A stretch of DNA of 64,000 nucleotides from an uncultured bacterium (GCA_964385615.1 CAYLPP010000003.1:11288-75287); one strand, 5' to 3'. Shown: positions 18,530 through 41,823, numbered from the stretch's first letter. Numbers and translations: made by a program. Notes: generated by a model from the letters alone, not told the origin.

Positions 18530-19072
18530 CTAGGAACGCACTACATGTGGCCCAACTTCTTTTGGATCATTTGGGTCGTTAATCCGGACTAACTTGCTAT
18601 TCTCATCGAGCATTGTTCGGAATAGAGCTAACTGTCTGGGTTCATCGCCCAAACGGACAACTTCTAATAGACGCCGCAAATGGAAATGCTTTACGATTTC
18701 TACTTCCTGGCTTTCTTTGAGAAAGCTTTGAATAGACTCGGGCAATTCTAACGTCTTTAGGACACGGGCTATATACGACCAGTCTTCACCTGTTATTTCA
18801 GATAATCCCCTGACACTCTTAACACCAGCGGACTGCTGGAGATTGCGGTAAAATTCAGCTTTTTTGAGGGGGAAATTTTCAAGTCGCTTGAGATAGGTCT
18901 GATGTTTTTCCCAGACTCTTTGATTAACAGCTTCCACCGACTCAAGATCTTTGGGGCGTTCCCCGAAAACAAACTGTTGCCGCCGATGTTGGTATTTGCT
19001 ATAAAAAGGCTGTGAGTATTGGAAGATACGCGACTCAAACTGTTGCGTCGCGGGGATCTTCGATGGCCCCAT
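18530..19072 (-). CDS. ParB-like HTH domain protein, copy A of a multi-copy family (3' part of the 506-aa ORF)
   Basis: It shares the WEKHQTYLKRLENFPLKKA and GVKSVRGLSEITGEDWSYIARVLKTLELPESIQSFL blocks with the ORFs at 40120-40815 and 58635-59168. A candidate internal start GGGGAACAAATGGGGCC (ATG at 19072) lies inside the proximal tandem repeat. Confidence 0.55.
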   Translation of the reverse strand: MGPSKIPATQQFESRIFQYSQPFYSKYQHRRQQFVFGERPKDLESVEAVNQRVWEKHQTYLKRLENFPLKKAEFYRNLQQSAGVKSVRGLSEITGEDWSYIARVLKTLELPESIQSFLKESQEVEIVKHFHLRRLLEVVRLGDEPRQLALFRTMLDENSKLVRINDPNDPKEVGPHVVRS

Positions 19073-19156
19073 TTGTTCCCCAGCTGCGAAACTGTGGGAT
19101 TTAAATTGTTGCGTAACAGGGAACTTCGCTGACCCCAATTGTTCCTCTGCTGCGAA
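19037..19156. repeat. two tandem 66-bp repeats upstream/inside copy A
   Basis: Units 19037-19090 and 19103-19156 (...TTGTTGCG..GGGAAC..CCCCA(A/T)TTGTTCC..CTGCGAA). They encode the peptide repeats AAEEQLGSAKFPVTQQFKSHSF and AAGEQMGPSKIPATQQFESRIF. Confidence 0.8.
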
Positions 19157-19159: not shown

Positions 19160-20050
19160 ACAGCCTTCAGTTCCACAAGCTTTTTCGGCTTGAGAAGCGA
19201 CGGAGGCTGAATGGATCTTCGCAGCAGAGGGAACATCCTTGTTCAACGCAACCTCTCCAGATTTATAGGCTTTCGCAGTCGCTTCATTGCAAGCATCGGC
19301 CAATTCAGCCAAAGCGGTATTCCACACTTCGGCATTTTGACCGGCATTAAAAGGGCGTCCAAACAGCCCTATATCCAGCCGCCCAATCCCCTTTTTCTTA
19401 TCAATAATATGACACACAACATAGCTTATGAATCTCGGCAAAAGCATTTTAATTTTATCGGGCTTCCCCTTATACAACCGACAAAAATCCCCGAATAATT
19501 GTAGCGTTTGAATTTGGTCATGCGCGGCACCCGCCTGAGCCCGCTCGGCATTAATTTCCATAGCTATACGCTGCTCCTGTTCAGACAAATCCTTTTCTTC
19601 AATATTTAGAGATTCCAGTTTGTCTTTAACAGAACCCAACTGCGAAATTCCTTTTTCCGCCAATATGTCTACCAGATTAGATACCTGCGTTCTAACATCT
19701 TTGAGTTTTATTTTTACCCGTTCCCAATCTGTCTGTAATTCGTTGATTCTTCCTGCCGTTGACTGATTCGCCGACTGAACCGCATTAGTAATCATTTTGG
19801 AATCGAATTGCAAATTATGAATGAACTCAATAACGGCTCGATCAATTGCCTCAGCGGGCAAATAAATTAATTCGCAATCAATCCCACGTGTTTTATCTGC
19901 CTTCATACATGCATAATAGCGATGAATGTTGCTCCAAGGAAATACCCAAGAATATCCTGGCGGAACACATGAGCAATCCATTCGCCGGAATAAGAAGCTA
20001 ACCCATGATTGAAAATTGTGGCAACAAAAATTCCCGCCATAATGGACCAT
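19160..20050 (-). pseudogene. 5'-truncated large serine recombinase (zinc-ribbon and coiled-coil C-terminal region only), fused in frame to copy A
   Basis: RMDCSCVPPGYSW...RYYACMKADKTRGIDCELIYLPAEAIDRAVIEFI matches the Cx2C...YYxC...C zinc ribbon followed by the I.AE.L..AV helix of large serine recombinases. There is no resolvase catalytic domain upstream, and the frame runs into the UPF0016 gene. Confidence 0.5.
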
Positions 20051-20154
20051 GGCTTTTTAAAGCGTGCGGCCAAAGAAAAGGCTAGAAGCTGGGTTTTATC
20101 TCCCATTTCACTTAAGGCAACGAGAATGAAGGAACTTGCAATGACTTGAATCAT
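19903..20154 (-). CDS. UPF0016 (GDT1/TMEM165) single-repeat membrane protein, possibly truncated
   Basis: EMGDKTQL signature. Only 83 aa, and its 3' 148 nt overlaps the recombinase-remnant frame. Confidence 0.5.
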   Translation of the reverse strand: MIQVIASSFILVALSEMGDKTQLLAFSLAARFKKPWSIMAGIFVATIFNHGLASYSGEWIAHVFRQDILGYFLGATFIAIMHV

Positions 20155-20208
20155 TTAGACTCTTTTTTAAGGTCGAGTCCAAGAAATAATCATACGGCGG
20201 TGATAGTT

Positions 20209-21600
20209 TTATATTTTAAACGTTGTTTGGGTATAAAAGAAATTTGCGTCGTCATTAGCGCCTGTATCTCGTGTAAACGGACCTGCAAAAAAGTGCCCAT
20301 ATCCGATTAAAAGATTGAGGTGTTCTGTTATTTTAATATTGGCTAAGAGATCAAGCTCTTCTCCCAATTGAGTGTTCGCATTTGGATTTGCAGCGCGCAG
20401 GACTCCTCCATTGTCACTGAACCATGGCGATTCCTTAGCATCCAGAAAAAACCAATGAAAATCGGATATGAGTGACAATCGAGAATGAGGCTTAAGTGAA
20501 TTTCCGATCCGAATATCATTTATGTTCTTCAGGCCCACCAAATCCATGAAACCATATTTATCGTGATTGCTTGGGAAAAGATTATCGAATGTATTGAACT
20601 GGCCATCGCTTGGATTCCGGTCTCCTGAAGCGTGATTAAATTCCGCATAAAATCTCGGAGAGGCCCAAACCTTCGCAAAAGTGTAACCTGCTTCCTGATG
20701 GAAAGCCCAAGCCGCAATGCTATCGTGGGCCCGGCTTCCGAACTGAAGCGCATATTCAGTCCCGTAATCAAAATTCCACTTTTTACCTTTGAAGCGATTG
20801 CCCATTGTATATTCTTTTAACTGCCCCAATTCACCCGGACGCTCACCTTGAATTTCATTATTGCGGTCATGCCGAATAAAAAGAAATGTATCTAAAACCT
20901 GATCTTTAAAAGGTTTTAAAGTTGAATACATCCCATAGAGATTATCGTGATGCGCTGCCGTATCTGGTGTATCTTTTCTAACTGAAACCACTTGAGCAAA
21001 AAAAGTATCGAATTGAAACCAATCGCGAGGATGATAGACGGCCTTAACTGCGTCAAAAACGCGCCCGACATTCGACCAATCGGGCGAACCGATAAAACGC
21101 CCGTCACCATAAATCAATTCTTGCCGTCCGACTTTTACCGTCGCCGGTATTTTCTCAAAAGGAGAATCCATTTCTCCAAAGAGCTGCCTGAGATCAAACT
21201 GGTCAGTAAAAGCATTGGTCTTATCAAGGCTGCTCTCGGCAAAGCTGTGGGCCTCCTGCCCCTCTGTAAAAATACGAATCGATTTTGCGTTATCAAACGG
21301 CTTAACTTTCATATCAAGATTCAAACGATTTCTAAAAAGGTTTATCGCATCATCCTCGTAAGTCGAATCATTAAAATTAAAATCGTCCCTGTATTCAAAC
21401 CGGTACCGCGATTCAAGACCCGCCTTCATTTCTATCCTGCCGTTATCAAAGGAGACCGGTTGGACAATGGAGTCTACCCATGACTTTTTTTGAGATCCGA
21501 TTTCTACTGAGGCGAAGGTCTTTGCGCAAAAGGAGATCGTCAGAAAACACAGAAAAATATAAAGAGAAAGTCTTTCGAATAAATCAGTTTTCATAAGCAA
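20209..21600 (-). CDS. alginate export (AlgE-like) family outer-membrane beta-barrel protein
   Basis: Signal peptide, beta-barrel periodicity, a C-terminal aromatic residue and overall similarity to the Alginate_exp family (recalled). Confidence 0.5.
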   Translation of the reverse strand: MLMKTDLFERLSLYIFLCFLTISFCAKTFASVEIGSQKKSWVDSIVQPVSFDNGRIEMKAGLESRYRFEYRDDFNFNDSTYEDDAINLFRNRLNLDMKVKPFDNAKSIRIFTEGQEAHSFAESSLDKTNAFTDQFDLRQLFGEMDSPFEKIPATVKVGRQELIYGDGRFIGSPDWSNVGRVFDAVKAVYHPRDWFQFDTFFAQVVSVRKDTPDTAAHHDNLYGMYSTLKPFKDQVLDTFLFIRHDRNNEIQGERPGELGQLKEYTMGNRFKGKKWNFDYGTEYALQFGSRAHDSIAAWAFHQEAGYTFAKVWASPRFYAEFNHASGDRNPSDGQFNTFDNLFPSNHDKYGFMDLVGLKNINDIRIGNSLKPHSRLSLISDFHWFFLDAKESPWFSDNGGVLRAANPNANTQLGEELDLLANIKITEHLNLLIGYGHFFAGPFTRDTGANDDANFFYTQTTFKI

Positions 21601-21641
21601 ATAAATATAAGTTAAATCTCATGATCTTAATGTGATAAATA

Positions 21642-22205
21642 TCACGTCTTCAAATCCTCTTCAGAATTGATATTGACAAAGAAAGAAGGCTCAGATGGCA
21701 AAGGAATGAGTTTAATCGAGCGAGTTTTTTTAAGAAAAGCTTGCATTGAAAGCTCATTCTTTTTTAACCACTTCTCTGCGCTTTTCTTCAAAGATGAAGG
21801 ATAAATGCCTGGAAAAGGCTGGAATAAGTCATTGCCGGAATCAAAAAGCGTAATTGAAGAATATTGAAATACATTGAGAAGTTTTTCTAATGCTATTTTA
21901 TGAACATAAGGCATATCGCATGTGAGGATCAATAAAGAAGTACGAGGAAATAGACAAGCGGCTGTATAGATTCCCCCAAGCGGTCCTTTATCCGGAATCA
22001 CGTCATTTTCAATCCGGCAATCAAGAAAGGAATAATCCCGTGATGGATTTGCAATAACAATGGGTTCGATTTCCAGACTTTTAAGCAACTGCACTGGTTT
22101 TTCGATCAAACGCTCGCCGTCGATCTCAGCAAGCGACTTGTCAGTGCCGAAGCGCAGGCTTTTGCCACCTGCTAGCACGATTCCTTTAACCACGTTTCGA
22201 TCCAT
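21642..22205 (-). CDS. mobA: molybdenum cofactor guanylyltransferase MobA
   Basis: GIVLAGGKSLRFG...DK N-terminus. Confidence 0.8.
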   Translation of the reverse strand: MDRNVVKGIVLAGGKSLRFGTDKSLAEIDGERLIEKPVQLLKSLEIEPIVIANPSRDYSFLDCRIENDVIPDKGPLGGIYTAACLFPRTSLLILTCDMPYVHKIALEKLLNVFQYSSITLFDSGNDLFQPFPGIYPSSLKKSAEKWLKKNELSMQAFLKKTRSIKLIPLPSEPSFFVNINSEEDLKT

Positions 22206-22629
22206 GAATTACTTCTTCTGAATGAGCGCATGAAATCCAGGATTGTTTGCCATCAGCGTAAATTTCTTTTTTCCAAATGGGAACGTCACATTTTATTAAC
22301 TCGATAACATTCCGGCAGGCCTTGAAGGCTTCATCGCGATGCGCGGAATGAGCTTCGATTACAACCGCAATCTCTCCTATCCCAAGCCAGCCAATGCGGT
22401 GAAGCACACGGATTTCATCAACGCCCGTTTCCTTTTTGACTGCTTCAGCGATTCTCTGGATTTCTTTCTCGGCCATGGGTTCATAACAATCATAGAAGAG
22501 TTTTTGTACTTTGTGGCCGGCATGATGGTTTCGCACTCTTCCTACAAAAAAAGCCGATGCTCCACATGAAGCATTAGGCGATGAAAGAAAATCCTCAAGG
22601 CGAATAGGTTCACGGGTAATAAACTTCAT
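22186..22629 (-). CDS. moaE: molybdopterin synthase catalytic subunit MoaE
   Basis: MoaE length and blocks. It overlaps mobA. Confidence 0.75.
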   Translation of the reverse strand: MKFITREPIRLEDFLSSPNASCGASAFFVGRVRNHHAGHKVQKLFYDCYEPMAEKEIQRIAEAVKKETGVDEIRVLHRIGWLGIGEIAVVIEAHSAHRDEAFKACRNVIELIKCDVPIWKKEIYADGKQSWISCAHSEEVIHGSKRG

Positions 22630-22632
22630 TAA

Positions 22633-22878
22633 TCAACCTCCCGAAACCGGCGGCAATAAAACCAAGGTGTCATTCTCGTTTAAGATGCGATCATCAGCCG
22701 CCCATTCTTCATTGACCGCCTTGTTAAGGGCAAGTCCTCGTAGTTTTTCCGGTCCTGCTTGCCGGCGCAACACTTCCTCTACTTCCCCGACCGATATCTT
22801 TTCTGAGACATTGAGATCCTGACTATCACAACCAAAAATGTCGCGCAATTGAGCAAAGTATAAAACTTTGATTCTCAT
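22633..22878 (-). CDS. moaD: molybdopterin synthase sulfur carrier MoaD
   Basis: 81 aa ending in GG. Confidence 0.75.
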   Translation of the reverse strand: MRIKVLYFAQLRDIFGCDSQDLNVSEKISVGEVEEVLRRQAGPEKLRGLALNKAVNEEWAADDRILNENDTLVLLPPVSGG

Positions 22879-24089
22879 GGCAGTTTATCCACGGCTAATT
22901 GCCGGCCTTTCTTCAGATTTTTATTTCCCGGCGGAACCACAAGAAAACCGTTCGTTTCATGCAATGATGAAATCATGTGAGAACCCTGATACGGAAGCAC
23001 TGAAATGCGATTGTTCTCTTCTAATTTACTTTTAAGAAATAACGTTTTTGCAGAATCACATTTAATGTTTTGCTTCACAAGGACTTTCTGCCTTTCAAGA
23101 AAGGGATTATGAAACCCCATAAGATTGCGGATTGCAGGAAGGACGTATTCGTAGAAACACATGTGGGCACTTGCAGGGTTTCCAGGCAGTCCAAAAATGA
23201 GTTTTGATCCAATCTTACCAAAATAAATTGGTTTGCCAGGCTTCTGGCTTACTTTCCAAAAAAGAGTTTTGACGCCAATTTCTCCAAGAACCGTCTTAGA
23301 AAAATCATAATCACCTACTGAAACGCCTCCGGTAAGTAAAATCAGGTCACTTTTGCGTAAAGCCTGAACGAGCGCCTGACGTAAGACATCTGATTTGTCC
23401 GGAAGTGCTTTTAGAATATGAGGACGAATCCCCAATGAGATTAACGCGGCAAGGAGCATTGGAGAATTACTATCGTAGATTTTTCCAAACGCCAGCTTTT
23501 TTCCCGGCATTACAAGCTCTGAACCTGTTGTGAGAATAGCGACTTTCGGTTTGGCATAAACAGCCACTTTTGTTCTTCCAACTTGCGAGAGAAAAGCAAT
23601 GGTTCCTGAATGAATAGGAATCTTACATAGATCAAGCTGCACGCCTTTTTGGATTTCTTCGCCCTTCTTACGGATATGCCTGCCTTTTTCTATGGGCTCT
23701 GAAATTTTCAAGAATTCATTTTCGACAAGAGCCATTTCCTTTGCAAGGACAGTATCTGCGCCAACCGGAATCGGAGCCCCCGTCATAATGCGTACAGCTT
23801 CTTTGGTTTTCAATTTCTTCGTGGCAGGATCACCCGCTTTCAGCGTGCCAATTATTTTTAAGAATACCGGACTTTTACTTTGATGAGCTTTCAGCGTATC
23901 TTGAGAGTTTAAAGCAAAACCATCCATGGCAGAATTATCCCAATGCGGTAAAGGAATAGGGACTCGAATCTTTTCAGCAAGGATACAACCGAGCGCCTCC
24001 ATTAGCGGAACAGACTCGATGCGTTTAAAACGGCTATTTTTAAGAATGATTTTGTGAGCAACTTCCGGAGAAATCATAAAGCGCTCCAA
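22875..24089 (-). CDS. moeA: molybdopterin molybdotransferase MoeA
   Basis: MoeA domain order with a GGVSVGDYD block. Confidence 0.8.
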   Translation of the reverse strand: MERFMISPEVAHKIILKNSRFKRIESVPLMEALGCILAEKIRVPIPLPHWDNSAMDGFALNSQDTLKAHQSKSPVFLKIIGTLKAGDPATKKLKTKEAVRIMTGAPIPVGADTVLAKEMALVENEFLKISEPIEKGRHIRKKGEEIQKGVQLDLCKIPIHSGTIAFLSQVGRTKVAVYAKPKVAILTTGSELVMPGKKLAFGKIYDSNSPMLLAALISLGIRPHILKALPDKSDVLRQALVQALRKSDLILLTGGVSVGDYDFSKTVLGEIGVKTLFWKVSQKPGKPIYFGKIGSKLIFGLPGNPASAHMCFYEYVLPAIRNLMGFHNPFLERQKVLVKQNIKCDSAKTLFLKSKLEENNRISVLPYQGSHMISSLHETNGFLVVPPGNKNLKKGRQLAVDKLP

Positions 24090-24823
24090 AGAAGCCTGGC
24101 TGCGGCATACATGATAAAAGCGCCGATGACTCTTCTGAGATTGCGTTCAGGGATATGATAAGCGCCAAGCCTTGATCCGATTTGTCCGCCAATAAATACA
24201 GCAAGCATTAAAGGAAGAAGCCCCTGAAAATGCAGGGAACTTTTATGCAAATGCCCTGCAAGAGCCGCGAGTGAATTGACAAAAATAAAAAAGCTCGCTG
24301 AAGCCGCAGCTTCTTTGGCATCAACCCACTGGATCAAAAGGAGCAAAGGGCTCAGAAAAATTCCACCTCCGATTCCGAGCATCCCGGAGAAAAATCCAAT
24401 AATGCCGCCCAACGGAAGACCCAGTATCCAAAACTTTGATGAAGGCTGCACTTTCACTTCCGATTTTCCGCTGATCATCATTCGGATTGCAACCGCCATA
24501 AGAGCCAACCCCAGAAGAATCGAAAAGGCTTGCTTGGAAATAGGGATTCGGCCGCCCAAGTAGGCCATAGGAATGGAAAAGATAACGAAAGGCAGAATTT
24601 TTTTAAACTCAAAATGGCCTGCTTTAAAAAATTGCCAAAAGGCTGTTCCGCTTACGACAAGATTGCAGATTAAGGCAATAGGCGGAATATCGAGATAGGA
24701 ATATCCGGTTAAGATAAGAACAGCAAGGTAGGACGAACCGCCGCCAAATCCCATAATCGAATAAACAACCGCAACAAGAAAAAAAAGAACAATCGTAAGC
24801 GGAGCCACGCCAAATAACATCAA
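24074..24823 (-). CDS. TauE/SafE (DUF81) family sulfite-exporter-like membrane protein
   Basis: Two-repeat TM protein with GGG-rich motifs, embedded in the Moco operon. Confidence 0.65.
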   Translation of the reverse strand: MMLFGVAPLTIVLFFLVAVVYSIMGFGGGSSYLAVLILTGYSYLDIPPIALICNLVVSGTAFWQFFKAGHFEFKKILPFVIFSIPMAYLGGRIPISKQAFSILLGLALMAVAIRMMISGKSEVKVQPSSKFWILGLPLGGIIGFFSGMLGIGGGIFLSPLLLLIQWVDAKEAAASASFFIFVNSLAALAGHLHKSSLHFQGLLPLMLAVFIGGQIGSRLGAYHIPERNLRRVIGAFIMYAAARLLWSAL

Positions 24824-25722
24824 TGTCCCATTCCTTTCATCATTCCATACCCGTGAAGAATCGCTGGAAAAATCGCATTGAGCGTTTCCTCTGTTCCTTT
24901 AGAAGATCCTGGAAGATTCACAATCAAAGTGTTTCCTTTTTGTCCTGCGAGGCCGCGGGAAAGCATGGCATAAGGAGTTCTTTTCTGGCCATATGCGCGT
25001 CCTGCTTCCATAATTCCGGGGATCTCGCGCTCAATGACTTCGCGCGTGGCTTCAACGGTCACATCACGCGGCCCGAGTCCGGTCCCGCCGGTTGTCAAAA
25101 TGAGCTGCACTTTTTCATCACACATTTTTTTCAGTTCCTTGACAATGCGTTCTTTTTCATCCGGCAAAATCGTGTAGCGGGGCTCAATGCCAAAGCTTTT
25201 TAATCTTCCCTGAATCACCTTTCCGGATTTGTCCTCCCGCTTTCCCTGGGAAGTCCCGTCCGAAGTCACAATGATTGCGGCAGAGAAACCTTTCGGAATT
25301 CTTTCAATAAAGTCGCTTTTCCCTCCGCGCTTTGAAATCAGTTTGGTGGATACAATTTCAAGTTCAACATCGAGCGGCTTGAGCATATCGTAAAGCGTCA
25401 GCGCCGCGACCGAAGCCGCAGTAAGCGCTTCCATTTCAACGCCAGTCTTGGCAACTGTTGAAGCGGAGGCTGTGAAGGTGACTGAATCATTGCCCAATTC
25501 ATATTCGACCTCCACATAATCGAGCGGCAACGGATGGCAAAAGGGTATAATCTCTCCTGTTTTCTTCGCCGCCGAAATTCCCGCAATGCGGGCTACGACA
25601 AGCGCATCTTTTTTTGGCAGATCATTTGATTTTAACCGGCGAATCGCCGTGGGCGTTGTACGAAGCGTGCTTTGCGCCAAGGCTGTCCGTAAGGTTTCGA
25701 TTTTGTCTGAAACTGATTTCAC
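24820..25722 (-). CDS. moaC: bifunctional MoaC / MogA(MoaB) protein
   Basis: N-terminal MoaC blocks followed by a MogA-type domain (TTGGTGLGPRD). Confidence 0.75.
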   Translation of the reverse strand: MKSVSDKIETLRTALAQSTLRTTPTAIRRLKSNDLPKKDALVVARIAGISAAKKTGEIIPFCHPLPLDYVEVEYELGNDSVTFTASASTVAKTGVEMEALTAASVAALTLYDMLKPLDVELEIVSTKLISKRGGKSDFIERIPKGFSAAIIVTSDGTSQGKREDKSGKVIQGRLKSFGIEPRYTILPDEKERIVKELKKMCDEKVQLILTTGGTGLGPRDVTVEATREVIEREIPGIMEAGRAYGQKRTPYAMLSRGLAGQKGNTLIVNLPGSSKGTEETLNAIFPAILHGYGMMKGMGH

Positions 25723-25723
25723 T

Positions 25724-26722
25724 TTATCCCCCTATTTTCCGGATCGCCGGGCCTGCGCCACGCACGGTTTCTTCAGAAACGTCAAAAGGTTTATTGCGGA
25801 AAGCATTGCCTGCCGGTTTAATCCTTACCGCTTCGCGAATAGCTGTCTCAATGGCTTCATCTGGTGCATTCTCGCGCAAAAGTTGTTTGATCGGAACTTG
25901 GACATCTGAAAAAAGACAGGGCCGAATATTGCCGTCCGCGGTCAAACGGATACGCGAGCACTGATCGCAAAATGATTCTGTAAGCGAACCGATAAATCCC
26001 ACTCTTCCTTTACCAGAAAGCAAGCGAAAGGTTTGAGCGGGCGCATCGTCCCGCGGAATTTCTTCGAGTTCAAAGTGTTCCTGGACAATACTCCGGATTT
26101 TAGCAATCGGAAAAACAAGATCCGGCCGCCAGGCCTCGCCGCAAAGCGGCATAAATTCAAGAAATCTCACATCAAGCGGCCAATCTTTAGCAAGACCCAC
26201 AAACTCAAGAATCTCATCGCGCGTGAGGCCACGAAGTGCAACCATATTCAGTTTTACAGGAAATCCTATTTTGAGTGCGAGAAACACAGCCTGCATGACC
26301 TCTCGAAAAGCATTAACCAAAGTCACTTCATGGAAACGTTTTTCATTCATGCTGTCGAGACTAATATTAATGCGGTCAAGACCCGCTTCTTTTAAAGATT
26401 CAAGCATCGGAGCAAGACGGCTAGCATTTGTTGTAATGGAAACGTCTTTTGTGCCTGCGCTTTTTAAGGATTGAATGATCTCCGCGATATCTTCTCGAAG
26501 AAGCGGTTCTCCACCCGTGAGGCGGACCTTTTCTATTCCAAGTGAGTTTGCGATACGGACGAAGCGAACGATTTCATGCCGCGTTAAATAATGAGAAGGC
26601 GGTAGAATGGGAATAGACGAAGTCGTGCAGTAAGTGCAACGAAAATTACAAAGTTCGGTAAGCGATATGCGCAAAGAACGCACCCGCCTGCCGAAAGAAT
26701 CGAACAATCTTTCGGGTTTCAT
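25724..26722 (-). CDS. moaA: GTP 3',8-cyclase MoaA (radical SAM)
   Basis: LTELCNFRCTYC radical-SAM motif and a C-terminal second-cluster Cys motif. The start is MKPERL at 26722 with a GGAG ribosome-binding site. Confidence 0.85.
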   Translation of the reverse strand: MKPERLFDSFGRRVRSLRISLTELCNFRCTYCTTSSIPILPPSHYLTRHEIVRFVRIANSLGIEKVRLTGGEPLLREDIAEIIQSLKSAGTKDVSITTNASRLAPMLESLKEAGLDRINISLDSMNEKRFHEVTLVNAFREVMQAVFLALKIGFPVKLNMVALRGLTRDEILEFVGLAKDWPLDVRFLEFMPLCGEAWRPDLVFPIAKIRSIVQEHFELEEIPRDDAPAQTFRLLSGKGRVGFIGSLTESFCDQCSRIRLTADGNIRPCLFSDVQVPIKQLLRENAPDEAIETAIREAVRIKPAGNAFRNKPFDVSEETVRGAGPAIRKIGG

Positions 26723-26730
26723 GGATCTCC

Positions 26731-26880
26731 TTGGCAATTCATCCCTCAATTTAAGGGAATCGGCTGGCTGCACCGTTTCCGGTGAAGCCCCGTTCTGGGA
26801 GCCATAGCGTGCATGCTTTAGGCTATCAGAATCGGAGAATTCAAAATTAATATTGAAATTTATTATAAGTTAATTTTTTC
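26731..26880 (-). ncRNA. candidate Moco (molybdenum cofactor) riboswitch in the moaA leader
   Basis: About 150-nt leader upstream of the Moco operon. On the minus strand it carries GGGCTTCACCG-GAAA-CGGTGCAGCC, a 10-bp stem with one mismatch capped by a GNRA tetraloop, and a duplicated CCGATTC element. No consensus check was possible. Confidence 0.3.
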
Positions 26881-26900
26881 TATTTAAAAGGCTTTTGTGT

Positions 26901-27818
26901 CTATGCAACTTGTGAATGAGCGTCGTTCCAGCGCCAGCGGTTGTGCATCCAGAGCGTCCAATCTTCAGGACGTTTCATGATTTCTTGTTGAAGATGCCTC
27001 ATATAATTCTGGGTGTTGGCCAGGATATCGGCTTTAGTGTCATGTGTTTGCTTTAAAGGAAAAGGATCTCCGAAAACAAGAACGGATTTTTTATTTTCTT
27101 TCCGGTAAAAAAAGGCAGGGATGACCGCGGAATCATATTTTAAAGCTAAGACAGCCGGCAAAGATGAAGTCGCGGCTTTCTGCCCGAAAAAATCGGGCCA
27201 CACGGCTCCTTTTTTCGCATGTTCATCAATCAGCATTGCAATCACCTGATTTTGTTTCAATAAGCGCACACATTTTTGAACTGCCCCTTCTTTGTTGATC
27301 GTTTTTAGCCCGGTTAACCCGCGTAAACGTTTGATGTATTGATCTACAAAAGTATTTTTATGTGGTTTACCGATGGCATGGAGAGGAATGCCTTTGGCGG
27401 CAGCCGCAACTCCGGCCAATTCCCAATTCCCAAAATGGGAAACAACGAGAATTACTCCCTTCCCTCGACTAAGAGCTCGCCAAACATTTTCCTCACCTTC
27501 AATTTCAATGTAAGCGGCCGGCCTTTTTGAAATAATCGGCAAGCGGATAAATTCGAAAATGACTTTGATCATATTTTGCATAGAGCCACGGCCAATCCTT
27601 TGGATTTCCTTTTCAGATTTTTTGGGAAATGCTTGATGCAAATTCCGCGTACAAAATTCCCGTCTGCGTTTACGCAGATAAAGAAGAGAGCCAATCCCTT
27701 CTGCGAGGCGTGCAGAAGTAACGCCGCTTAGACGATTAACGACAACCGTGAGGGTGCGGAAGAAAAGATAGCTCAGGTAAGAAGTAAGTTTAGCGGGTTG
27801 TTGTTCAGTAGTATGCAT
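26901..27818 (-). CDS. lysophospholipid/lipid A acyltransferase (LpxL/HtrB-like)
   Basis: SHFGNWE HX4E acyltransferase motif. Confidence 0.7.
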   Translation of the reverse strand: MHTTEQQPAKLTSYLSYLFFRTLTVVVNRLSGVTSARLAEGIGSLLYLRKRRREFCTRNLHQAFPKKSEKEIQRIGRGSMQNMIKVIFEFIRLPIISKRPAAYIEIEGEENVWRALSRGKGVILVVSHFGNWELAGVAAAAKGIPLHAIGKPHKNTFVDQYIKRLRGLTGLKTINKEGAVQKCVRLLKQNQVIAMLIDEHAKKGAVWPDFFGQKAATSSLPAVLALKYDSAVIPAFFYRKENKKSVLVFGDPFPLKQTHDTKADILANTQNYMRHLQQEIMKRPEDWTLWMHNRWRWNDAHSQVA

Positions 27819-27858
27819 AGATGACTCCGATCCATTTGTCAGTTACACATAAATCAAT

Positions 27859-28503
27859 TTAAAGGCTTTGACTTGGCGCAATATAAAAAAGCATCCCAAA
27901 AAAATGAGCCATACTTCCACAAATCACAAAAAGATGCCATAACGTGTGATGGTAGGGAAGTTTCTTCCACGCATAGAAAATGGTTCCAAAAGTATAGGCA
28001 AGTCCCCCGATCAGGAGCCATAGAATGAGCCCCTTCTCGCAAGACTGAGTTAATGGTTTGATTGCGATCACAACTAGCCAGCCCATGATCAGGTATAAAA
28101 GAATGGACAGAATCTTGAACCGCTCTATTGCAAAAGCATGCAAACAAATGCCTAACAGTGCCATACCCCAAATGATCCCAAAGAGTGACCAACCCCATGC
28201 TCCGCGTAGAATAACTAGTGCAACAGGCGTGTAACTACCGGCAATAAGAAGATAAATACTGCTATGGTCGAGAATTTTCAAAACACGCTTTGCAGCATCA
28301 TGCGTAATGCTGTGATAGAGCGTGGACACCAGATATAAGATAATGAGAGTTGCTCCAAAAATACTAAGGCTCGTGACCGCCCGAACACTTCCCACAGTGG
28401 CCGATACAACAAGGAGAATAACAAGCCCTGCAATACTTAATAGAGTCGCAATACCATGAGTAATACTATTCGCAATTTCTTCTTCACGCGTTTGGATTCG
28501 CAT
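27859..28503 (-). CDS. hemolysin III / PAQR family membrane protein
   Basis: Seven TM helices with the HxxxH and HHT motifs of YqfA/Hly-III. The start is MRIQTREEE at 28503. Confidence 0.7.
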   Translation of the reverse strand: MRIQTREEEIANSITHGIATLLSIAGLVILLVVSATVGSVRAVTSLSIFGATLIILYLVSTLYHSITHDAAKRVLKILDHSSIYLLIAGSYTPVALVILRGAWGWSLFGIIWGMALLGICLHAFAIERFKILSILLYLIMGWLVVIAIKPLTQSCEKGLILWLLIGGLAYTFGTIFYAWKKLPYHHTLWHLFVICGSMAHFFGMLFYIAPSQSL

Positions 28504-29392
28504 TTTCACCCCGTTTCCCCGCTTCAATAACAATTCTATTTTTGCCCGTACGTTTCGCTTCAAGGAGATTCCGGTCCGCCATTTCGACAAGCATGGAAAC
28601 ATCGGAATCTTGCGTATCATCAAGTGAAAACAGTCCAAAACTCGCCGAGAAGGCGTTCAAAGTGCCTATCACATTTTTATAATACTGATTAATCGTTTCC
28701 TGAACTCGTTTAGCAACCAAGTTTGCATCATTTAATCGTGTCTCGGGGAAAATCACTAAAAATTCATCTCCGCCATATCTTCCCGTAATATCGATCTTCC
28801 GCGTACTCTTTTCCAGGATTCGGGCAAAGGTACGCAATACGCGGTCGCCTATGCAATGTCCATAATTGTCATTAATCTGCTTAAGATTATCGATATCTAC
28901 CATCATGACGCACAAATGCCGGCTATAGCGACGGGCACGCTCCAATTCCTTATCAAGCTCTGTAATGATATGCCGGCGGTTGTAAATACCGGTTAATTCA
29001 TCCGTGCGGGATTCCTCTTCTAAAATAGCATTCCATTCTTTTTGTTTGGTGATGTCCTGCCAAACTCCTATAAAATGGCTGATCTCACCACGGGGAGCTT
29101 TTATGGGCCCAATCGAGATGAGTTCCCAATAAAGGCGGCCGTCTTTTCGTTTATTACACAGTTCTCCGGTCCAGACCTTTCCGGCAAGAATTGTCATCCA
29201 TAATTCTTCATAAACGGAAACCGGTGTTTTCTTTGCGGATAATATCCGAGGACTCTTCCCGATCAATTCCTCTCGTTCATATCCGGAAAGTTCCAAAAAT
29301 CTCTGATTCACATACACAATGATCGCCTCCCGGTTTGTAATCAAAACCGGAACGGGTGCGAAATTCATTGCTTCGGCGAAAAGATTGTCCAT
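28484..29392 (-). CDS. PAS domain-containing diguanylate cyclase (GGDEF)
   Basis: PAS region followed by RYGGDEF. Confidence 0.85.
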   Translation of the reverse strand: MDNLFAEAMNFAPVPVLITNREAIIVYVNQRFLELSGYEREELIGKSPRILSAKKTPVSVYEELWMTILAGKVWTGELCNKRKDGRLYWELISIGPIKAPRGEISHFIGVWQDITKQKEWNAILEEESRTDELTGIYNRRHIITELDKELERARRYSRHLCVMMVDIDNLKQINDNYGHCIGDRVLRTFARILEKSTRKIDITGRYGGDEFLVIFPETRLNDANLVAKRVQETINQYYKNVIGTLNAFSASFGLFSLDDTQDSDVSMLVEMADRNLLEAKRTGKNRIVIEAGKRGENANPNA

Positions 29393-29436
29393 AACTTGTT
29401 AAGCCGCCTTACCAAAGCATACTTTCGTCCGATTTT

Positions 29437-29691
29437 TTAATCATCAATTGAAAGCGCGTTAAATTCCGGGTGATTGCGCTGGCAGATTTTGATGAGCTCC
29501 TCTGCAAGCCTTGCATGCATTCGTTCTTCGCCTACAAGGCTTCTCAAAAGAGGCACTGATTCATCCTCTCTGCCAAAATCTTCAAGCAATTCATCGACGA
29601 CTTCTTGATAGCTCCAGGCAGCCTGCTCCTCATTTCGTTTGATCTTTTCAAACCGGAGCATCCAGAGCGTCTTTAAGAATTCGTTTTTCAT
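29437..29691 (-). CDS. hypothetical small protein (possible ferritin-like ExxH)
   Basis: 84 aa, acidic, with an EERMHARLAEE block. Its start is coupled to the stop of the upstream ORF. Confidence 0.35.
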   Translation of the reverse strand: MKNEFLKTLWMLRFEKIKRNEEQAAWSYQEVVDELLEDFGREDESVPLLRSLVGEERMHARLAEELIKICQRNHPEFNALSIDD

Positions 29692-30014
29692 GGAATTTTT
29701 TTTCCTAAATTAGTGATAATCTGTTTCAGGATCTCTTTATGCCTTTTGCTATCCTCTGAGAGTTTTTTAAGGATTTGCAAGACTCGCTCTTTATCGTCGT
29801 TTTTAAAAAAAATGAGTTCTTCATGGTTCTGATAAAGAGTCGAGAACAGACTAATCCCGATATCCTCTTCTTCAATCTCATGCAAAAGTTTATTAATAAG
29901 TTCTTCTATTCTCTCTTTTCGCATGGATACTCCCAATGTCCCAATTCCTAACTGACCCAAAGAATCTTTATCCTGGAAGCCCAAACGCTTAATCATAAAT
30001 TCGCTGCCAAACAT
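29688..30014 (-). CDS. hypothetical small protein
   Basis: 108 aa, charged and alpha-helical. It overlaps the next gene by 4 bp. Confidence 0.35.
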   Translation of the reverse strand: MFGSEFMIKRLGFQDKDSLGQLGIGTLGVSMRKERIEELINKLLHEIEEEDIGISLFSTLYQNHEELIFFKNDDKERVLQILKKLSEDSKRHKEILKQIITNLGKKIP

Positions 30015-30032
30015 TACTAAACAGGTTTAAAA

Positions 30033-30461
30033 TCAAAAGGTTTTCTTTTTCGAATCCGACATCATTTGTTCAAGCGATGTCTTACTAAGCTCATTAATGA
30101 AATTTTGTTTCATTCTTTTCCAAACCGGATGAATGGGGCATGGGGACTTATCTTTACAGTGTGGAAGCCCCATCACACAACGATCATAAGCATGATCGCC
30201 ATCGATGATTCTTACGATCTGAAGAACCGTTATTACGCCCGGATCCGCTTTCAACCGATATCCTCCCCCGGGTCCTCTTACTGTTTTTAAAATGTCGCCG
30301 TGGACTAGGCGTTGGAATCCCTTGCGAGTAAAAGACTCAGGCACACCTGCCTCCCGGCAAGCGTCTTCCACGCGGAAGCCTTCTCCTTTTGCCGTTTCTA
30401 GACCACAAACTAATGCACGGAGGGTATATTCACAATTCTTAGAATAAAGAGAAAACATCAT
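30033..30461 (-). CDS. Rrf2 family transcriptional regulator (NsrR/IscR-like, three Cys)
   Basis: GPGGGYRL block plus C-x-C-x-C ligands (CVMGLPHCKDKSPC). It lies immediately downstream of nirK. Confidence 0.75.
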   Translation of the reverse strand: MMFSLYSKNCEYTLRALVCGLETAKGEGFRVEDACREAGVPESFTRKGFQRLVHGDILKTVRGPGGGYRLKADPGVITVLQIVRIIDGDHAYDRCVMGLPHCKDKSPCPIHPVWKRMKQNFINELSKTSLEQMMSDSKKKTF

Positions 30462-30473
30462 CAGCTCCTATTT

Positions 30474-30499
30474 AATACTGGACTTTATTGTCCACTATT
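30474..30499. promoter_or_regulatory. 10-6-10 imperfect palindrome upstream of the Rrf2 gene
   Basis: AATACTGGAC-TTTATT-GTCCACTATT (one mismatch), 13 bp upstream of the start codon. Confidence 0.4.
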
Positions 30500-30605
30500 A
30501 GGAGGGATGATGTCAAGGGCCTAAATTATGGCGAATAAGGATACGTGGAAAATCAAGGTCGCCGGCTATTTGAGGGCAGGTAAATTCGGGTGGGAATCCT
30601 GCACT

Positions 30606-31649
30606 TCAGGGGTGGACTAAACAGCCTTTACACGGCGTAGCATCACCTTTTGCGACATAAATATCATGGCGGGGTTCTCCATCGACTTGTAAATAGCCGA
30701 CAGCTCCTTTTTCGATTCGGAAAATTGCATGGTCTACCAAAGTGTAAGTTCCCGGCACTTCTAATTGAAATTCAACAGCTGTAGCGCCGCCTGACGGCAC
30801 GAGGGTGGTTTGAATGCTATGCGCGGGAGGATCAACAAGATCTCCTTCTCGATAAACACTATCAAAAATTTCGCCGATCACATGAAACGATGAAATAAGG
30901 TTCGGCCCTGCATTGCCAAAATAAATCCGGATGCGTTCACCGGTCTTGGCTTTAAGCGCTCCATCTCCAGTTAGCGAATTCATACGGCCGTTAAACACTA
31001 CGAACTTCGGATGCTCTTTAAGTCCTTCTTCATGGGAAAAATCCAAAACATCCTGCCCTTGCGCTGGTTCTTTTGCATAGATTTCGCTTTGCAGAACATA
31101 AAACTCACGATCCACTTTAGGAAGACCTTTTTCGGGCTCAACCAAAATTAATCCATACATTCCATTAGCAATGTGGTCCATGACAGGCGGCGCAGCACAG
31201 TGATAAATGAAAAGGCCGGGATGAAGCAATTTGAACCAAGCCATTCCTTCCATATCGGTAGTTGCGGTAGTCACAGGTGCGCCGCCGCCCGGACCTGTGA
31301 CTGCATGAAAATCCACATTATGCGGCATACCGCTCTTATCTCTATTGGTTAATTCCACCTGAAGCGTATCCCCTACTCTTGCGCGGATAAATGGACCTGG
31401 TACATGCCCATTAAAGGTCCAAAATTTATATTTGGTGCCGCCATTAATCGGTTTAATTTCTGAAGTCGCGTCTAAATGAACGCGAACAATAGCCGGCTTC
31501 TTTCGTGCAATTGGAGGAGGAACTTCCGGCGCAAAAGTAAGGATCGCATCTTCCCTAAGAGGTGCGTGGGAAGCTCTCGAATCTGAGGGCATAAAAATAA
31601 AATTGAACAAAACGATTGAAACAATGGCAACTGCTTTATTTTTTGTCAT
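30606..31649 (-). CDS. nirK: copper-containing nitrite reductase NirK
   Basis: HNVDFHAVTG and YHCAAPPVMDHIANGM type-1/type-2 Cu ligand blocks, with a signal peptide from M at 31649. Confidence 0.8.
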   Translation of the reverse strand: MTKNKAVAIVSIVLFNFIFMPSDSRASHAPLREDAILTFAPEVPPPIARKKPAIVRVHLDATSEIKPINGGTKYKFWTFNGHVPGPFIRARVGDTLQVELTNRDKSGMPHNVDFHAVTGPGGGAPVTTATTDMEGMAWFKLLHPGLFIYHCAAPPVMDHIANGMYGLILVEPEKGLPKVDREFYVLQSEIYAKEPAQGQDVLDFSHEEGLKEHPKFVVFNGRMNSLTGDGALKAKTGERIRIYFGNAGPNLISSFHVIGEIFDSVYREGDLVDPPAHSIQTTLVPSGGATAVEFQLEVPGTYTLVDHAIFRIEKGAVGYLQVDGEPRHDIYVAKGDATPCKGCLVHP

Positions 31650-31681
31650 TATATTTTTCTTGTGATTCCATATCAGCATTT

Positions 31682-33983: not shown

Positions 33984-33990
33984 AGGGATT

Positions 33991-34239
33991 TTACCTCGAG
34001 TCTTTCTCGCTTGAAGTTACATTTAATGCCGTCGTGAAAGCCATAAAACCACAGCATAGAAGTGCAATACCGCTTAAGATTATTGCGCCTATCAGGTGGG
34101 ATGTTTTCCCTTCCAGATAGGATTCCATCGCTGAAAATAAAATCCATATTTGAGTGAAAATGGCCCCCAAACTCAGAATGAGACAGACATTTTCAATCAT
34201 CTGAGCGTTTTCGTTGTACCTATCTCTAAATTTCATCAA
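33991..34239 (-). CDS. small membrane protein, hypothetical
   Basis: 82 aa with two TM helices, in an operon with the Rieske gene. Confidence 0.35.
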   Translation of the reverse strand: MMKFRDRYNENAQMIENVCLILSLGAIFTQIWILFSAMESYLEGKTSHLIGAIILSGIALLCCGFMAFTTALNVTSSEKDSR

Positions 34240-34781
34240 TCCCCAATTTGTCCTTCGATTCCAGCAAAGAAAACACCTTCCTTTCGGACATCAAGTTTGA
34301 TGCGAGGAAGCGGCCGTTCAGGAGGCCCATAAAGCACATCGCCTGTTTTCACATTAAAAGCACCGTGGTGGCAAGGGCATACGAGTTTCGATTCGCTTTT
34401 TTTCCAAATCACCGGGCATTGCAAATGAGTGCATTTTTGAGAATATGCCACGTATTCATTTTCAGAAAGACGCACCAAGATCACTGGCCCTTTGTCTTCG
34501 GGCAGACTAAAAACGTACGAGCCGCCGACTTCAATATCTTCCGAGCCTAAAATACGGAATTCTTTGATCGGATGGATGCGATGCCACAAACTTTTTATGA
34601 AAACTCCAATCGTCCCGGTGAAAAGGCCTAACGAGACAAGGAAGAGAAAACGGATAAAATCTCTTCGTGCGATATGCGTATCCTGAGCGACATCAACTGG
34701 AAAATCATCTGCCCACTTCGGATGATTTTTTTGCTTTATATCGTTTGATGCATTTTTTTCATCGCCCATTAAATCACCCAT
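34236..34781 (-). CDS. Rieske [2Fe-2S] protein, membrane-anchored
   Basis: CTHLQCPV...CPCHHGAF (CxH...CxxH) plus an RRDFIRFL Tat-like/TM anchor. Confidence 0.8.
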
Positions 34782-38646: not shown

Positions 38647-38652
38647 TATGCT

Positions 38653-39548: not shown

Positions 39549-39551
39549 TGT

Positions 39552-39986: not shown

Positions 39987-39994
39987 TTTAGGAT

Positions 39995-40735: not shown

Positions 40736-40755
40736 CCGAAGGAGTAAAACTCCAC

Positions 40756-41789: not shown

Positions 41790-41823
41790 GACAACTTTCC
41801 GGTGACAAAACGAATCGTTTGGG

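What the first reader, a model, noticed from the sequence alone, without database searches (positions are those of the whole stretch)
18530..19156. Multi-copy ~180-aa ParB-like HTH gene family whose tandem 65-66-bp repeats carry its own start site
Three paralogous ORFs (18530-19072, 40120-40647, 58635-59168) and one decayed fragment (63175-63330) recur in the same orientation across the 64 kb. They share long identical blocks: W(E/Q)KHQTYLKRLENFPLKKA, GVKSVR(G/A)LSE(I/L)TGEDWSYIARVLKTLELP(E/D)S(I/V)QSFLK and EIVKHFHLRRL(L/V)E(I/V)VRLGDE. The SVRGLSEITGEDWSYIARVLKTLELPESIQSFL segment aligns position by position with the ParB/Spo0J helix-turn-helix pattern (..LA..LG.SRS.V.N.LRLL.LPE.VQ..L), recalled from memory. 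Each copy is immediately preceded by two (A, B) or one (C) direct repeats of 65-66 bp. In A and B the gene-proximal repeat contains G(A/G)GGAACAAATGGGGCC, a ribosome-binding-site-like GGA four nt before an ATG that is in frame with the conserved domain. The repeat therefore supplies the translation start and is also translated in the longer ORFs as AAGEQMGPSKIP... and AGEEQMGPARLL.... This looks like an iteron or parS-like autoregulatory cassette, or the terminal module of a mobile element. It does not match any standard IS, integron or CRISPR layout.
Basis: partly seen in the sequence, partly recalled or inferred. Interest (0 to 1): 0.8.

Follow-up and report, generated by a model that had tools for sequence, protein, structure and literature searches.

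The report
Serine-recombinase island ends with mini-ParB
The repeated ~180-aa gene and the short repeats in front of it are the conserved end-module (a truncated ParB-like DNA-binding protein plus the recombination site) of an apparently undescribed family of serine-recombinase mobile islands that stack up next to the tRNA-His gene in Omnitrophota bacteria; in this window they carry arsenic, nitric-oxide and molybdenum genes.

Summary
Three diverged paralogues and one fragment of a ~175-aa gene lie on the minus strand, each preceded by a conserved ~50-bp motif (two to three tandem copies at A and B). The protein is a truncated ParB/Noc-type HTH protein, supported weakly by sequence and consistently by fold.

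The repeats are not iterons and do not generally supply the start codon. The ATG is present and in frame in only 19 of 55 related junctions. The motif is a recombination junction with three parts:
- The left half is the 3' coding tail of a large serine recombinase (LSR) gene.
- The centre, ATGGGGT, is the complement of the tRNA-His 3' end.
- The right half is the half-site next to the ParB-like gene.

In 119 related Omnitrophota copies:
- 34 lie directly after an intact tRNA-His.
- 12 lie directly after an LSR gene or stub.
- One complete ~17-kb element runs ParB-like, cargo, LSR, tRNA-His.
- In 3 of 6 LSR contexts tested, the LSR gene ends at or overlaps the tRNA-His 3' end.

The window holds at least four tandem, recombinase-less elements with arsenic, NO-stress and Mo-cofactor cargo. 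This resembles SCC composite islands or tycheposons. The function of the mini-ParB is inferred, not shown.

The parts
18530..19072 (-). ParB-like gene copy A (conserved core 18608-19030). It is fused in frame to the upstream recombinase remnant in a 506-aa ORF.
19039..19090 (-). att-like junction unit A2, proximal to the gene: TTCGCAGCTGGGGAACAA-ATGGGGCC-ATCGAAGATCCCCGCGACGCAACAG. The ATG at 19072-19070 is in frame.
19105..19155 (-). att-like junction unit A1, 65 bp upstream of A2.
19235..19918 (-). C-terminal remnant of a large serine recombinase (end of the zinc ribbon, coiled coil and tail). It is 51-55% identical to full-length LSRs in L058 and L108. The N-terminal ~350 aa are deleted. It abuts a GDT1 half-gene at 19903-20154.
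40120..40647 (-). ParB-like gene copy B (core 40183-40605). It is identical to database protein P0016.
40614..40665 (-). att-like junction unit B3, proximal to the gene. The ATG at 40647 is in frame.
40692..40737 (-). att-like junction unit B2: GGTTCGTCAGAACAA-ATGGGGT-CCTCGCAGTTACTCCACGCGAATA.
40716..40873 (-). Flank 'beta', including degenerate unit B1 (40797-40826) and a 20-bp hairpin (40752-40798). It is 88.6% identical to the 3' flank of tRNA-His in locus L002. Homology stops at ATGGGGT, where L002 continues into the tRNA.
58635..59168 (-). ParB-like gene copy C (core 58680-59102). The true start codon is uncertain.
59113..59158 (-). att-like junction of copy C: GGTTCGTGGTTACAT-ATGGGGT-CCTTTATCTTACCCTCGACGATTC. 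The ATG is out of frame.
59137..59489 (-). Flank 'alpha', including a half-site scar at 59215-59234 and a hairpin at 59154-59178. It is homologous (74%) to the 3' flank of tRNA-His in L055 and to the ParB-upstream region of L002.
63178..63270 (-). Decayed fragment D of a ParB-like gene (HTH segment only).
63295..63334 (-). att-like junction of fragment D (ATGGGTCCTTGCGGTTACTCCCCGCGAATA), directly after the Hsp20 terminator. This is probably the distal edge of the island array.
59490..63177 (-). Cargo of element D: arsR, ACR3-type arsenite carrier, two LMW-PTP-type ArsC genes, a small Cys-rich ORF and an ArsP permease.
40874..58634 (.). Cargo of element C: ClC channel, qNOR, NnrS, AOX-like, Rrf2, hemerythrin, PtsI-like, an acyl-CoA synthetase-GNAT protein, DUF488, NDH-2-like, UDG and XRE. 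It shares no nucleotide homology with the cargo at the same position in L002.
19919..40119 (-). Cargo of element B: Rrf2, hemerythrin, DGC, genes not annotated here, the Moco riboswitch with downstream ORFs not scanned here, MoeA/MoaE/MobA, an alginate-export-type porin and a GDT1 half-gene. It ends in the LSR remnant.

Best explanation
The ParB-like gene and its upstream motif form the conserved end-module of a family of integrative, partly conjugative elements in Candidatus Omnitrophota. These elements are inserted by a large serine recombinase (LSR) at the 3' end of tRNA-His.

Layout of a complete element: [core + P' half-site] - ParB-like gene - backbone and cargo genes - LSR gene - [P half-site lying in the last LSR codons + core] - tRNA-His. 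In the window type ('W'), the tRNA is convergent with the LSR.

- The P arm ((G)GTTCG..GAACAA) is the LSR 3' tail.
- The core is ATGGGG(T), the complement of the tRNA-His end ..ACCCCAT.
- The P' arm lies next to the ParB-like gene.

New elements insert at the tRNA and push older ones outward. Recombinase genes then decay, which leaves arrays of 'ParB-like + cargo' segments separated by junctions. The window contains at least four such segments (D, C, B, A). Only B retains an LSR remnant.

Shown: the junction anatomy, the tRNA-His target, the LSR association, the arrays, the cargo turnover, and purifying selection on the ParB-like gene.

Inferred:
- The LSR catalyses the recombination.
- LSR-less segments may still be mobilisable in trans.
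- The mini-ParB is a DNA-binding accessory factor of the excised or transferring element. It could act in regulation or partition, or in recombination directionality at the att site. In the circular form it lies immediately downstream of the LSR gene across attP, so it could then be co-transcribed with it.
For: (1) Distribution. 43 genome loci are nearly all Omnitrophota, and 80 metagenome loci were added. Of 119 unique copies, 34 of 59 'T-type' copies lie 140-220 nt 3' of an intact tRNA-His(GTG). The other T-type copies follow a degenerate (G)ACCCCA remnant.

(2) LSR association. An LSR gene or stub ends less than 450 nt upstream of 12 copies (L004, L009, L045, L049, L050, L058, L060, L065, L078, L108, L121 and window A). 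L004 has the Resolvase, Recombinase and Zn_ribbon_recom domains. The LSR 3' end reads ..GGTTCGAAACAAAAGGAATGGGGTC.., which is the left half of the window motif.

(3) Occupied versus empty sites. The upstream flanks of window C and B are homologous to tRNA-His 3' flanks in L055 and L002. Homology runs exactly up to ATGGGGT. After that point those loci continue into the tRNA, while the window continues into P' and the ParB-like gene. L092 shows both junctions in one locus.

(4) A tested prediction. LSRs of the family to which the window remnant belongs were looked up independently. In 3 of 6 contexts the LSR gene ends at or overlaps the tRNA-His 3' end: L126, where the tRNA supplies the stop codon, L127 and L131. 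The other three (L128, L129, L130) end in a T-type P-core-flank junction.

(5) A complete element. L082 and L126 overlap and give a 16.9-kb element: junction, ParB-like, czc/DsbA cargo, LSR, tRNA-His.

(6) Mobility genes. Conjugation genes lie upstream of the LSR. L127 has CagX and TrbI. L129 has TrbI, a VirB11-like ATPase, a relaxase and a coupling protein.

(7) Arrays and cargo. Tandem same-orientation arrays occur in L060 (3 copies in 5 kb, with AbiE and XRE cargo and an LSR stub), L022, L041, L045, L105 and L121. Only the junction and the ParB-like gene are shared between loci; the cargo is unrelated.

(8) Constraint. The motif is conserved although synonymous sites are saturated. It is found only directly upstream of ParB-like genes.
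Against: - No tRNA gene is present in the window, so the link of this array to tRNA-His is by homology of the flanks only.
- No excised circle, empty attB in a near-identical strain, or recombination assay is available. The exact crossover point is undefined because the B and P arms are similar.
- LSRs normally do not recombine attP with attL or attR, so tandem arrays require relaxed specificity, as Ccr recombinases have (my own knowledge). This was not shown here.
- T-type and W-type elements lie in opposite orientation to the tRNA yet share the ParB-proximal half-site. This is unexplained.
- Two or three complete units 65-75 bp apart are not predicted by simple integration.
- At least two very different LSR clades (~21% identity) accompany the same module.
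- The function of the mini-ParB rests on position and fold only. No sigma-70-like promoter was found in the junctions, but Omnitrophota promoters are unknown.
Confidence: 0.78

Rival explanations
1. The repeats are iterons or parS-like operators bound by the ParB-like protein for autoregulation, and the proximal repeat is conserved because it provides the ribosome-binding site and start codon.
For: The protein has a ParB-type HTH. The motif always lies directly upstream of the gene. In window copies A and B the ATG is in frame and preceded by GGA/GAGGA. Binding of the protein to the att region is not excluded.
Against: Most loci have one unit, not an array. The triplet is ATG in 35 of 55 unique junctions and in frame in only 19. 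The left half of the unit is the coding tail of the LSR. The core equals the tRNA-His 3' end, and homology with tRNA flanks breaks exactly there. No ParA partner or conserved regulator target is nearby.
Confidence: 0.1
2. The ParB-like gene is an ordinary chromosomal gene that happens to lie next to tRNA-His. The extra copies arose by segmental duplication and the recombinase genes are incidental neighbours.
For: T-type copies have conserved upstream synteny: tRNA-Pro, tRNA-Arg, a DUF748 gene, then tRNA-His.
Against: Copies within one array are deeply diverged, with dS 1.6-2.5. Downstream genes vary and are typical of mobile elements: AbiE, TraG_N-like, T4SS, relaxase. The LSR-junction-ParB arrangement recurs in 12 copies, and LSR-tRNA-His in 3 of 6 independent look-ups. 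Cargo differs completely between homologous junctions.
Confidence: 0.04
3. The elements are classical tRNA-targeting islands moved by a tyrosine integrase, as the tRNA 3'-half remnants would suggest. The LSR is cargo or belongs to another element.
For: Some T-type junctions carry 25-45-nt tRNA-His-like remnants (L022, L037, L120). Such remnants are typical of tyrosine-integrase attR sites (my own knowledge). One tyrosine integrase lies 2 kb beyond an LSR in L129.
Against: No tyrosine integrase appears among the conserved neighbours. The LSR gene ends precisely in the junction. In L126 its stop codon lies within the tRNA, and in L131 the called ORF runs on through the tRNA. The remnants share only (G)ACCCCA with the tRNA and look like a mimicking half-site.
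Confidence: 0.05

Closest known systems
SCC / SCCmec composite islands of staphylococci (CcrA/CcrB large serine recombinases; from my own knowledge)
   Same: LSR-driven integration at the 3' end of one conserved gene. Tandem same-orientation arrays separated by repeated integration-site sequences. Many recombinase-less 'pseudo' elements. Cargo of resistance and metal genes. The window LSR remnant's weak NCBIfam hit is to CcrB.
   Different: The target is tRNA-His, not rlmH. The phylum is different. A conserved mini-ParB gene sits at the end opposite the recombinase. The P half-site lies inside the recombinase's last codons. Some members carry T4SS and relaxase genes.
Tycheposons of Prochlorococcus (bioRxiv 10.1101/2020.12.28.424599)
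   Same: tRNA-targeted cargo-carrying elements. Successive integrations push older elements further into the island. Degenerated remnants and partial tRNAs are scattered in the islands. Cargo is adaptive. A minority (27 of 937) use an LSR.
   Different: Tycheposons mostly use tyrosine recombinases, carry replication modules and use several tRNA targets. No ParB-like terminal gene is described for them. The present family is LSR-based, tRNA-His-specific and confined to Omnitrophota.
ParB / Spo0J / Noc / KorB superfamily
   Same: The HTH DNA-binding domain fold and sequence pattern, including the box III-like region and the LxLP..IQ helix. A remnant of the GERR box is present as GERP.
   Different: The protein is only ~175 aa. 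The N-terminal CTPase (ParB/Srx) domain is truncated to two beta-hairpins. There is no Pfam ParBc hit and no ParA partner. The family is narrow, with 156 clusters among 1.84 billion representatives.
ICEs with a partition-type gene at the att-proximal end that is expressed across the circular junction (PAPI-1 soj, ICEclc, Tn916; from my own knowledge)
   Same: A DNA-partition-family gene is the first gene inside one element end, opposite the recombinase. In the circular form it lies directly downstream of the recombinase end.
   Different: Those elements use tyrosine integrases, or different recombinases. Here expression across attP is only inferred.
Integrons
   Same: Arrays of same-orientation cassettes separated by a conserved recombination site next to a fixed docking point. 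Most units lack their own recombinase.
   Different: No IntI tyrosine recombinase and no attC or attI structure. Units hold several genes and each carries a 0.5-kb conserved gene. The recombinase is a serine enzyme encoded at the element end.

Membership tests
ParB/Spo0J/Noc/KorB superfamily | ParB-type HTH DNA-binding domain (Pfam PF17762) | tested here: met
   The window copies score 16.5-19.5 bits, below the gathering score of 22.6. PF17762 is nevertheless the only recurrent family, matching 32 of 34 members with a best E-value of 4e-5. A family profile against PDB sequences gives Noc at E=0.0016 and ParB at 0.011. The top 39 Foldseek PDB hits of the AF2 model (pLDDT 75.6) are all from this superfamily.
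ParB/Spo0J/Noc/KorB superfamily | N-terminal ParB/Srx CTP-binding domain (boxes I-III, GERRxR) | tested here: not met
   No ParBc hit at E<=1. Only ~45 residues precede the motif. GERP replaces GERR. The model shows two beta-hairpins and a disordered N-terminus.
ParB/Spo0J/Noc/KorB superfamily | Partner ParA ATPase and palindromic parS sites | tested here: not met
   No ParA-like gene appears among the conserved neighbours in about 125 loci. No parS search was possible without a known site.
Large-serine-recombinase integrative elements | Recombinase with Resolvase, Recombinase and zinc-ribbon domains at the element end | tested here: met
   Met in relatives: L004 and the P0271-P0338 family. 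LSR genes end in the junction. In the window only a 227-aa C-terminal remnant survives, at 19235-19918.
Large-serine-recombinase integrative elements | Simple ~40-50-bp att sites with imperfect dyad symmetry around a short core | tested here: inconclusive
   The units are 46-52 bp and bounded by the inverted GGTTCG...CGAACC in many junctions, with a shared core GGGGT. The crossover dinucleotide is not defined and there is no functional test.
Large-serine-recombinase integrative elements | Site-specific insertion shown by comparing occupied and empty sites | tested here: met
   The same flank adjoins tRNA-His in L002 and L055 but adjoins P' and the ParB-like gene in the window. LSR-core-tRNA-His junctions occur in L126, L127 and L131. 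A complete element is reconstructed from L082 and L126.
Large-serine-recombinase integrative elements | Excision to a circular attP form | not testable with these tools
   No read-level data are available. No relative was found in viral contigs or plasmid records.
Tandem accreted islands (SCC composite / tycheposon type) | Several same-orientation elements sharing one att sequence, including recombinase-less members with variable cargo | tested here: met
   The window has 3 copies and 1 fragment. L060 has 3 copies in 5 kb. L022, L041, L045, L105 and L121 have 2 each. Cargo is unrelated between loci.
Integron | IntI tyrosine recombinase, attI and attC-bounded cassettes | tested here: not met
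   No tyrosine recombinase appears among the conserved neighbours. The junctions lack attC architecture and show no conserved fold (mean z -0.9).
Iteron / parS operator array | Multiple direct repeats as a general feature of the locus | tested here: not met
   Most of the 55 unique W-type junctions have a single unit. The profile hits one site per gene in most loci.

The most novel reading that the evidence does not exclude
The mini-ParB is an obligatory partner of the serine recombinase. It could act as a directionality or synapsis factor, or as a switch made only when the element is circular and the LSR gene reads across attP into it. The recombinase-less 'ParB-like + cargo' segments would then form a trans-mobilisable cassette array docked at tRNA-His, in effect an integron-like gene-capture system built on a serine recombinase. 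The conserved junctions, despite saturated synonymous divergence, and the in-frame LSR::ParB ORFs in window A, L108 and P0159 are compatible with this reading but do not show it.
Probability: 0.2. Interest if true: 0.8.

Novelty: new variant of a known kind. Interest (0 to 1): 0.55.

Why it matters
- It defines a mobile-element family and its insertion site in Omnitrophota, a phylum known almost only from metagenomes. No paper in the searched library links Omnitrophota, serine recombinases, tRNA-His and a ParB-like gene.
- The ParB-like gene and its junction motif give a simple marker for delimiting genomic islands and their adaptive cargo (arsenic, metal efflux, NO detoxification, defence systems) in these genomes. 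They also explain why such regions break assemblies.
- The elements use a tRNA 3' end as LSR target, which is unusual. About 70 related recombinase clusters have inferable att half-sites, which may interest developers of genome-integration tools.
- The conserved mini-ParB at the attP-proximal position is a candidate new accessory factor for serine-recombinase elements.

Tried and rejected
- Rfam on the window and on 12 loci gave only a Moco riboswitch and tRNAs. Nothing matched the motif.
- Folding of 54 junctions gave a mean z of -0.9. One subfamily has a strong hairpin, but no conserved structure exists, so an RNA-element reading was dropped.
- Tandem Repeats Finder does not report the 65-75-bp units because they are too diverged.
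- Exact look-ups failed for P0016 and for a window protein, so the source contig could not be extended.
- A homologue search with the LSR remnant alone gave only 2 hits. A full-length LSR from L058 had to be used instead.
- PHROGs, the phage and plasmid collections and viral contigs contain no relative.
- I suspected that the 261-338-aa backbone protein is a 'replication-relaxation' protein. Pfam and BLAST did not support this, so it is not claimed.
- The tmRNA-like sequence upstream of some junctions was not confirmed by ARAGORN or Rfam. ARAGORN does find a normal tmRNA in L131.
- The similarity of ATGGGGTCC to the tRNA was first read in the direct orientation. L002 and L055 showed that it is the reverse complement.
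- The promoter scan found nothing usable.

Full report
**1. The observation**

Three ORFs on the minus strand are paralogues: 18530-19072, 40120-40647 and 58635-59168.
- They are 77-79% identical over 300 nt.
- Their 141-codon cores give dN/dS of 0.05-0.10 with saturated dS of 1.6-2.4.
- They are therefore functional genes that diverged long ago, not recent duplications inside this genome.
- A 93-nt fragment of the HTH segment lies at 63178-63270.

Each copy is preceded by a conserved motif.
- GAACAAWTGGGGYC occurs four times, against 0.12 expected, and only upstream of A and B.
- A wider junction pattern hits B, C and D, against 0.01 expected.
- The spacing is 65-66 bp at A and 75 bp at B.
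- B has a third, degenerate unit. C has one full unit and a scar.

**2. The protein**

- Pfam HTH_ParB scores below its gathering threshold in the window copies. It is still the only family that recurs, matching 32 of 34 aligned homologues.
- A profile of the family finds Noc and ParB first among PDB sequences.
- An AlphaFold2 model (pLDDT 75.6) has ParB, Noc, Spo0J, KorB and SopB chains as its top 39 Foldseek hits.
- No ParBc/Srx domain is detected. Only two beta-hairpins that include GERP precede the HTH.
- The family is narrow: 156 clusters among 1.84 billion representatives. It is absent from the phage, plasmid and viral-contig collections.
- Genome hits are almost all Candidatus Omnitrophota MAGs.

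**3. Two contexts in related loci**

I collected 119 unique copies from 125 loci.
- 59 are distant 'T-type' copies. 34 of them lie 140-220 nt downstream of an intact tRNA-His(GTG), in a tRNA-Pro/tRNA-Arg/DUF748/tRNA-His neighbourhood. They follow the sequence ..CCACCCCA nnn GTTACCCTCATGCGAACC.
- The remaining T-type copies follow a degenerate ..(G)ACCCCA remnant with the same box.
- 60 are 'W-type' copies, the type in the window. None follows a tRNA.
- W-type copies are often multicopy in one orientation. L060 has three copies within 5 kb, separated by AbiEi/AbiEii and XRE-type cargo.

**4. The recombinase link**

- In window A the ParB-like ORF is fused to the C-terminal third of a large serine recombinase (LSR).
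- In L004 a complete LSR with the Resolvase, Recombinase and Zn_ribbon_recom domains ends just before the motif.
- Twelve copies have an LSR gene or stub ending less than 450 nt upstream.
- The LSR 3' end reads ..GGTTCGAAACAAAAGGAATGGGGTC.. (..GSKQKEWG..).
- It also explains why the ATG is not a conserved start. The triplet is ATG in 35 of 55 unique junctions and in frame in only 19.

**5. The core is the tRNA-His 3' end**

- The region upstream of window C (59137-59489) is homologous to the 3' flank of tRNA-His in L055.
- The region upstream of window B (40716-40873) is 88.6% identical to the tRNA-His flank in L002, with about 100 nt identical.
- In both cases homology runs up to ATGGGGT. After that point those loci continue into the tRNA as its reverse complement, while the window continues into the ParB-proximal half-site and gene.
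- L092 shows both junction types in one locus.
- Between homologous junctions the cargo has no nucleotide similarity.

**6. A prediction tested**

If the model is right, the LSR gene of a tRNA-proximal element should end against the tRNA-His 3' end. I retrieved the LSR family to which the window remnant belongs and looked up six members.
- In L126 the LSR ends inside tRNA-His, and its stop codon TGA lies within the tRNA sequence.
- In L127 the junction is GGTTCGTCCGAGGGTATCAA-ATGGGGT-GAGCGACGGG (the tRNA).
- In L131 the called ORF runs through the tRNA.
- L128, L129 and L130 end in a T-type P-arm/(G)ACCC(CA)/hairpin junction.
- L082 and L126 overlap and give a complete 16.9-kb element: junction, ParB-like, czc-type efflux and DsbA cargo, LSR, tRNA-His.
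- L127 and L129 carry T4SS, relaxase and coupling-protein genes upstream of the LSR, so some members are conjugative.
- Complete elements also carry conserved unknown genes after the ParB-like gene. T-type elements have a TraG_N-like 457-aa protein. W-type elements have a 134-aa protein and a 261-338-aa protein. None of these is in the window.

**7. Reading of the window**

From 63334 downward the window is an array of at least four elements that have lost their recombinase and backbone genes:
- D carries the ars operon.
- C carries NO-stress and assorted cargo.
- B carries Rrf2 and hemerythrin, the Mo-cofactor biosynthesis genes with the nearby Moco riboswitch, and the LSR remnant.
- A extends beyond the window.

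The junction of D follows the Hsp20 terminator and is probably the distal edge. The comparison with L002 suggests that B and A arrived later, on the tRNA-proximal side. The tRNA itself is not in the window.

**8. Mechanism**

Shown:
- the anatomy of the junction;
- the target site;
- the recurrent LSR and ParB-like end genes;
- the arrays and the cargo turnover;
- the selective constraint on the gene and the motif.

Inferred:
- The LSR recombines a ~50-bp attP, which spans its own last codons, the core and the ParB-proximal arm, with the tRNA-His 3' end.
- Arrays arise through relaxed specificity, as with Ccr recombinases (my own knowledge).
- LSR-less segments may be moved in trans.
- The mini-ParB binds DNA of the excised element. 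In the circular form its gene lies directly downstream of the LSR gene across attP. In the integrated form it is preceded by terminator-like hairpins and by no recognisable promoter. It may therefore be made mainly after excision. This last step is speculative.

**9. Comparison and novelty**

The closest analogues are SCC composite islands and tycheposons. The fold places the small protein in the ParB superfamily, but it fails the CTPase-domain and ParA-partner criteria. I found no description of this element family in the searched literature. It is a new variant of a known kind of system, not a new kind.

**10. Open points**

- Why complete junction units occur in tandem, 65-75 bp apart.
- Why LSR and ParB-like ORFs are fused in frame in three cases.
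- Why T-type and W-type elements have opposite orientation but share a half-site.
- Why the same module accompanies two very different LSR clades.

Noticed in passing
window 26711-26849 (-): Molybdenum/tungsten cofactor riboswitch (RF01055, 47 bits). The downstream ORFs (25724-26773 and following) were not scanned. MoeA, MoaE and MobA genes lie at 21642-24089.
   Followed up: partly
window 39066-39986 and 50833-52269: Two paralogous Rrf2 + hemerythrin modules. Short nucleotide repeats link them (39073-39131 vs 50837-50895, 86%). They lie in two different elements of the array.
   Followed up: partly
window 19903-20154 / 19918: A GDT1 (UPF0016) half-gene ends where the recombinase remnant begins. 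This is a deletion junction that removed the N-terminal ~350 aa of the LSR.
   Followed up: partly
L001 ~9760-9950; also L007, L011, L027 upstream of the junction: A ~200-nt structured-looking sequence with a tmRNA-like 5' end (GGGGCGGTCGACGGGAATTGGCGCC...). In L027 it also has a tRNA-like 3' end (..TTCAAGTCCCGTCGCTCACCA). ARAGORN and Rfam do not recognise it. It may be another small-RNA gene used as a docking site.
   Followed up: partly
window 18530-20050; L108 1155-3737; protein P0159: The recombinase ORF runs in frame into the ParB-like ORF with no stop codon in three unrelated cases, but not in L004, L066, L058 or L050. This could be chance, or an LSR::ParB fusion specific to contiguous (circular or tandem) junctions.
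   Followed up: partly
L035 4523-~5930: An IS-like insertion, with inverted ends resembling GGTAACAGTTCGTACCGGAGACAT, splits the GTTACC|CTC box between tRNA-His and the ParB-like gene. Similar ends are seen at the start of L012.
   Followed up: no
L017 6465-7835 and 13 other T-type loci; L060 12506-13716 and ~11 W-type loci: Conserved uncharacterised backbone genes lie directly downstream of the ParB-like gene. T-type elements have a TraG_N-like 457-aa membrane protein. W-type elements have a 134-aa Cys-rich membrane protein and a 261-338-aa protein. All are absent from the window.
   Followed up: partly
window 52310-56600 (+): A quinol-type nitric-oxide reductase (NorB with a cytochrome c-like domain), NnrS and an alternative-oxidase-like gene lie next to an Rrf2 regulator. 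This is an NO-detoxification cargo block.
   Followed up: no
window 1006-3326 (-): A PHO4-family phosphate transporter and a 391-aa SAM methyltransferase lie at the low end of the window. With the ars operon at the other end, they might relate to arsenic handling. This was not tested.
   Followed up: no
L129 11803-14728: A second, convergent large serine recombinase, a MerR/HTH_17 gene and a tyrosine integrase lie immediately beyond the LSR end of a conjugative element. This suggests another element abutting the same site.
   Followed up: no
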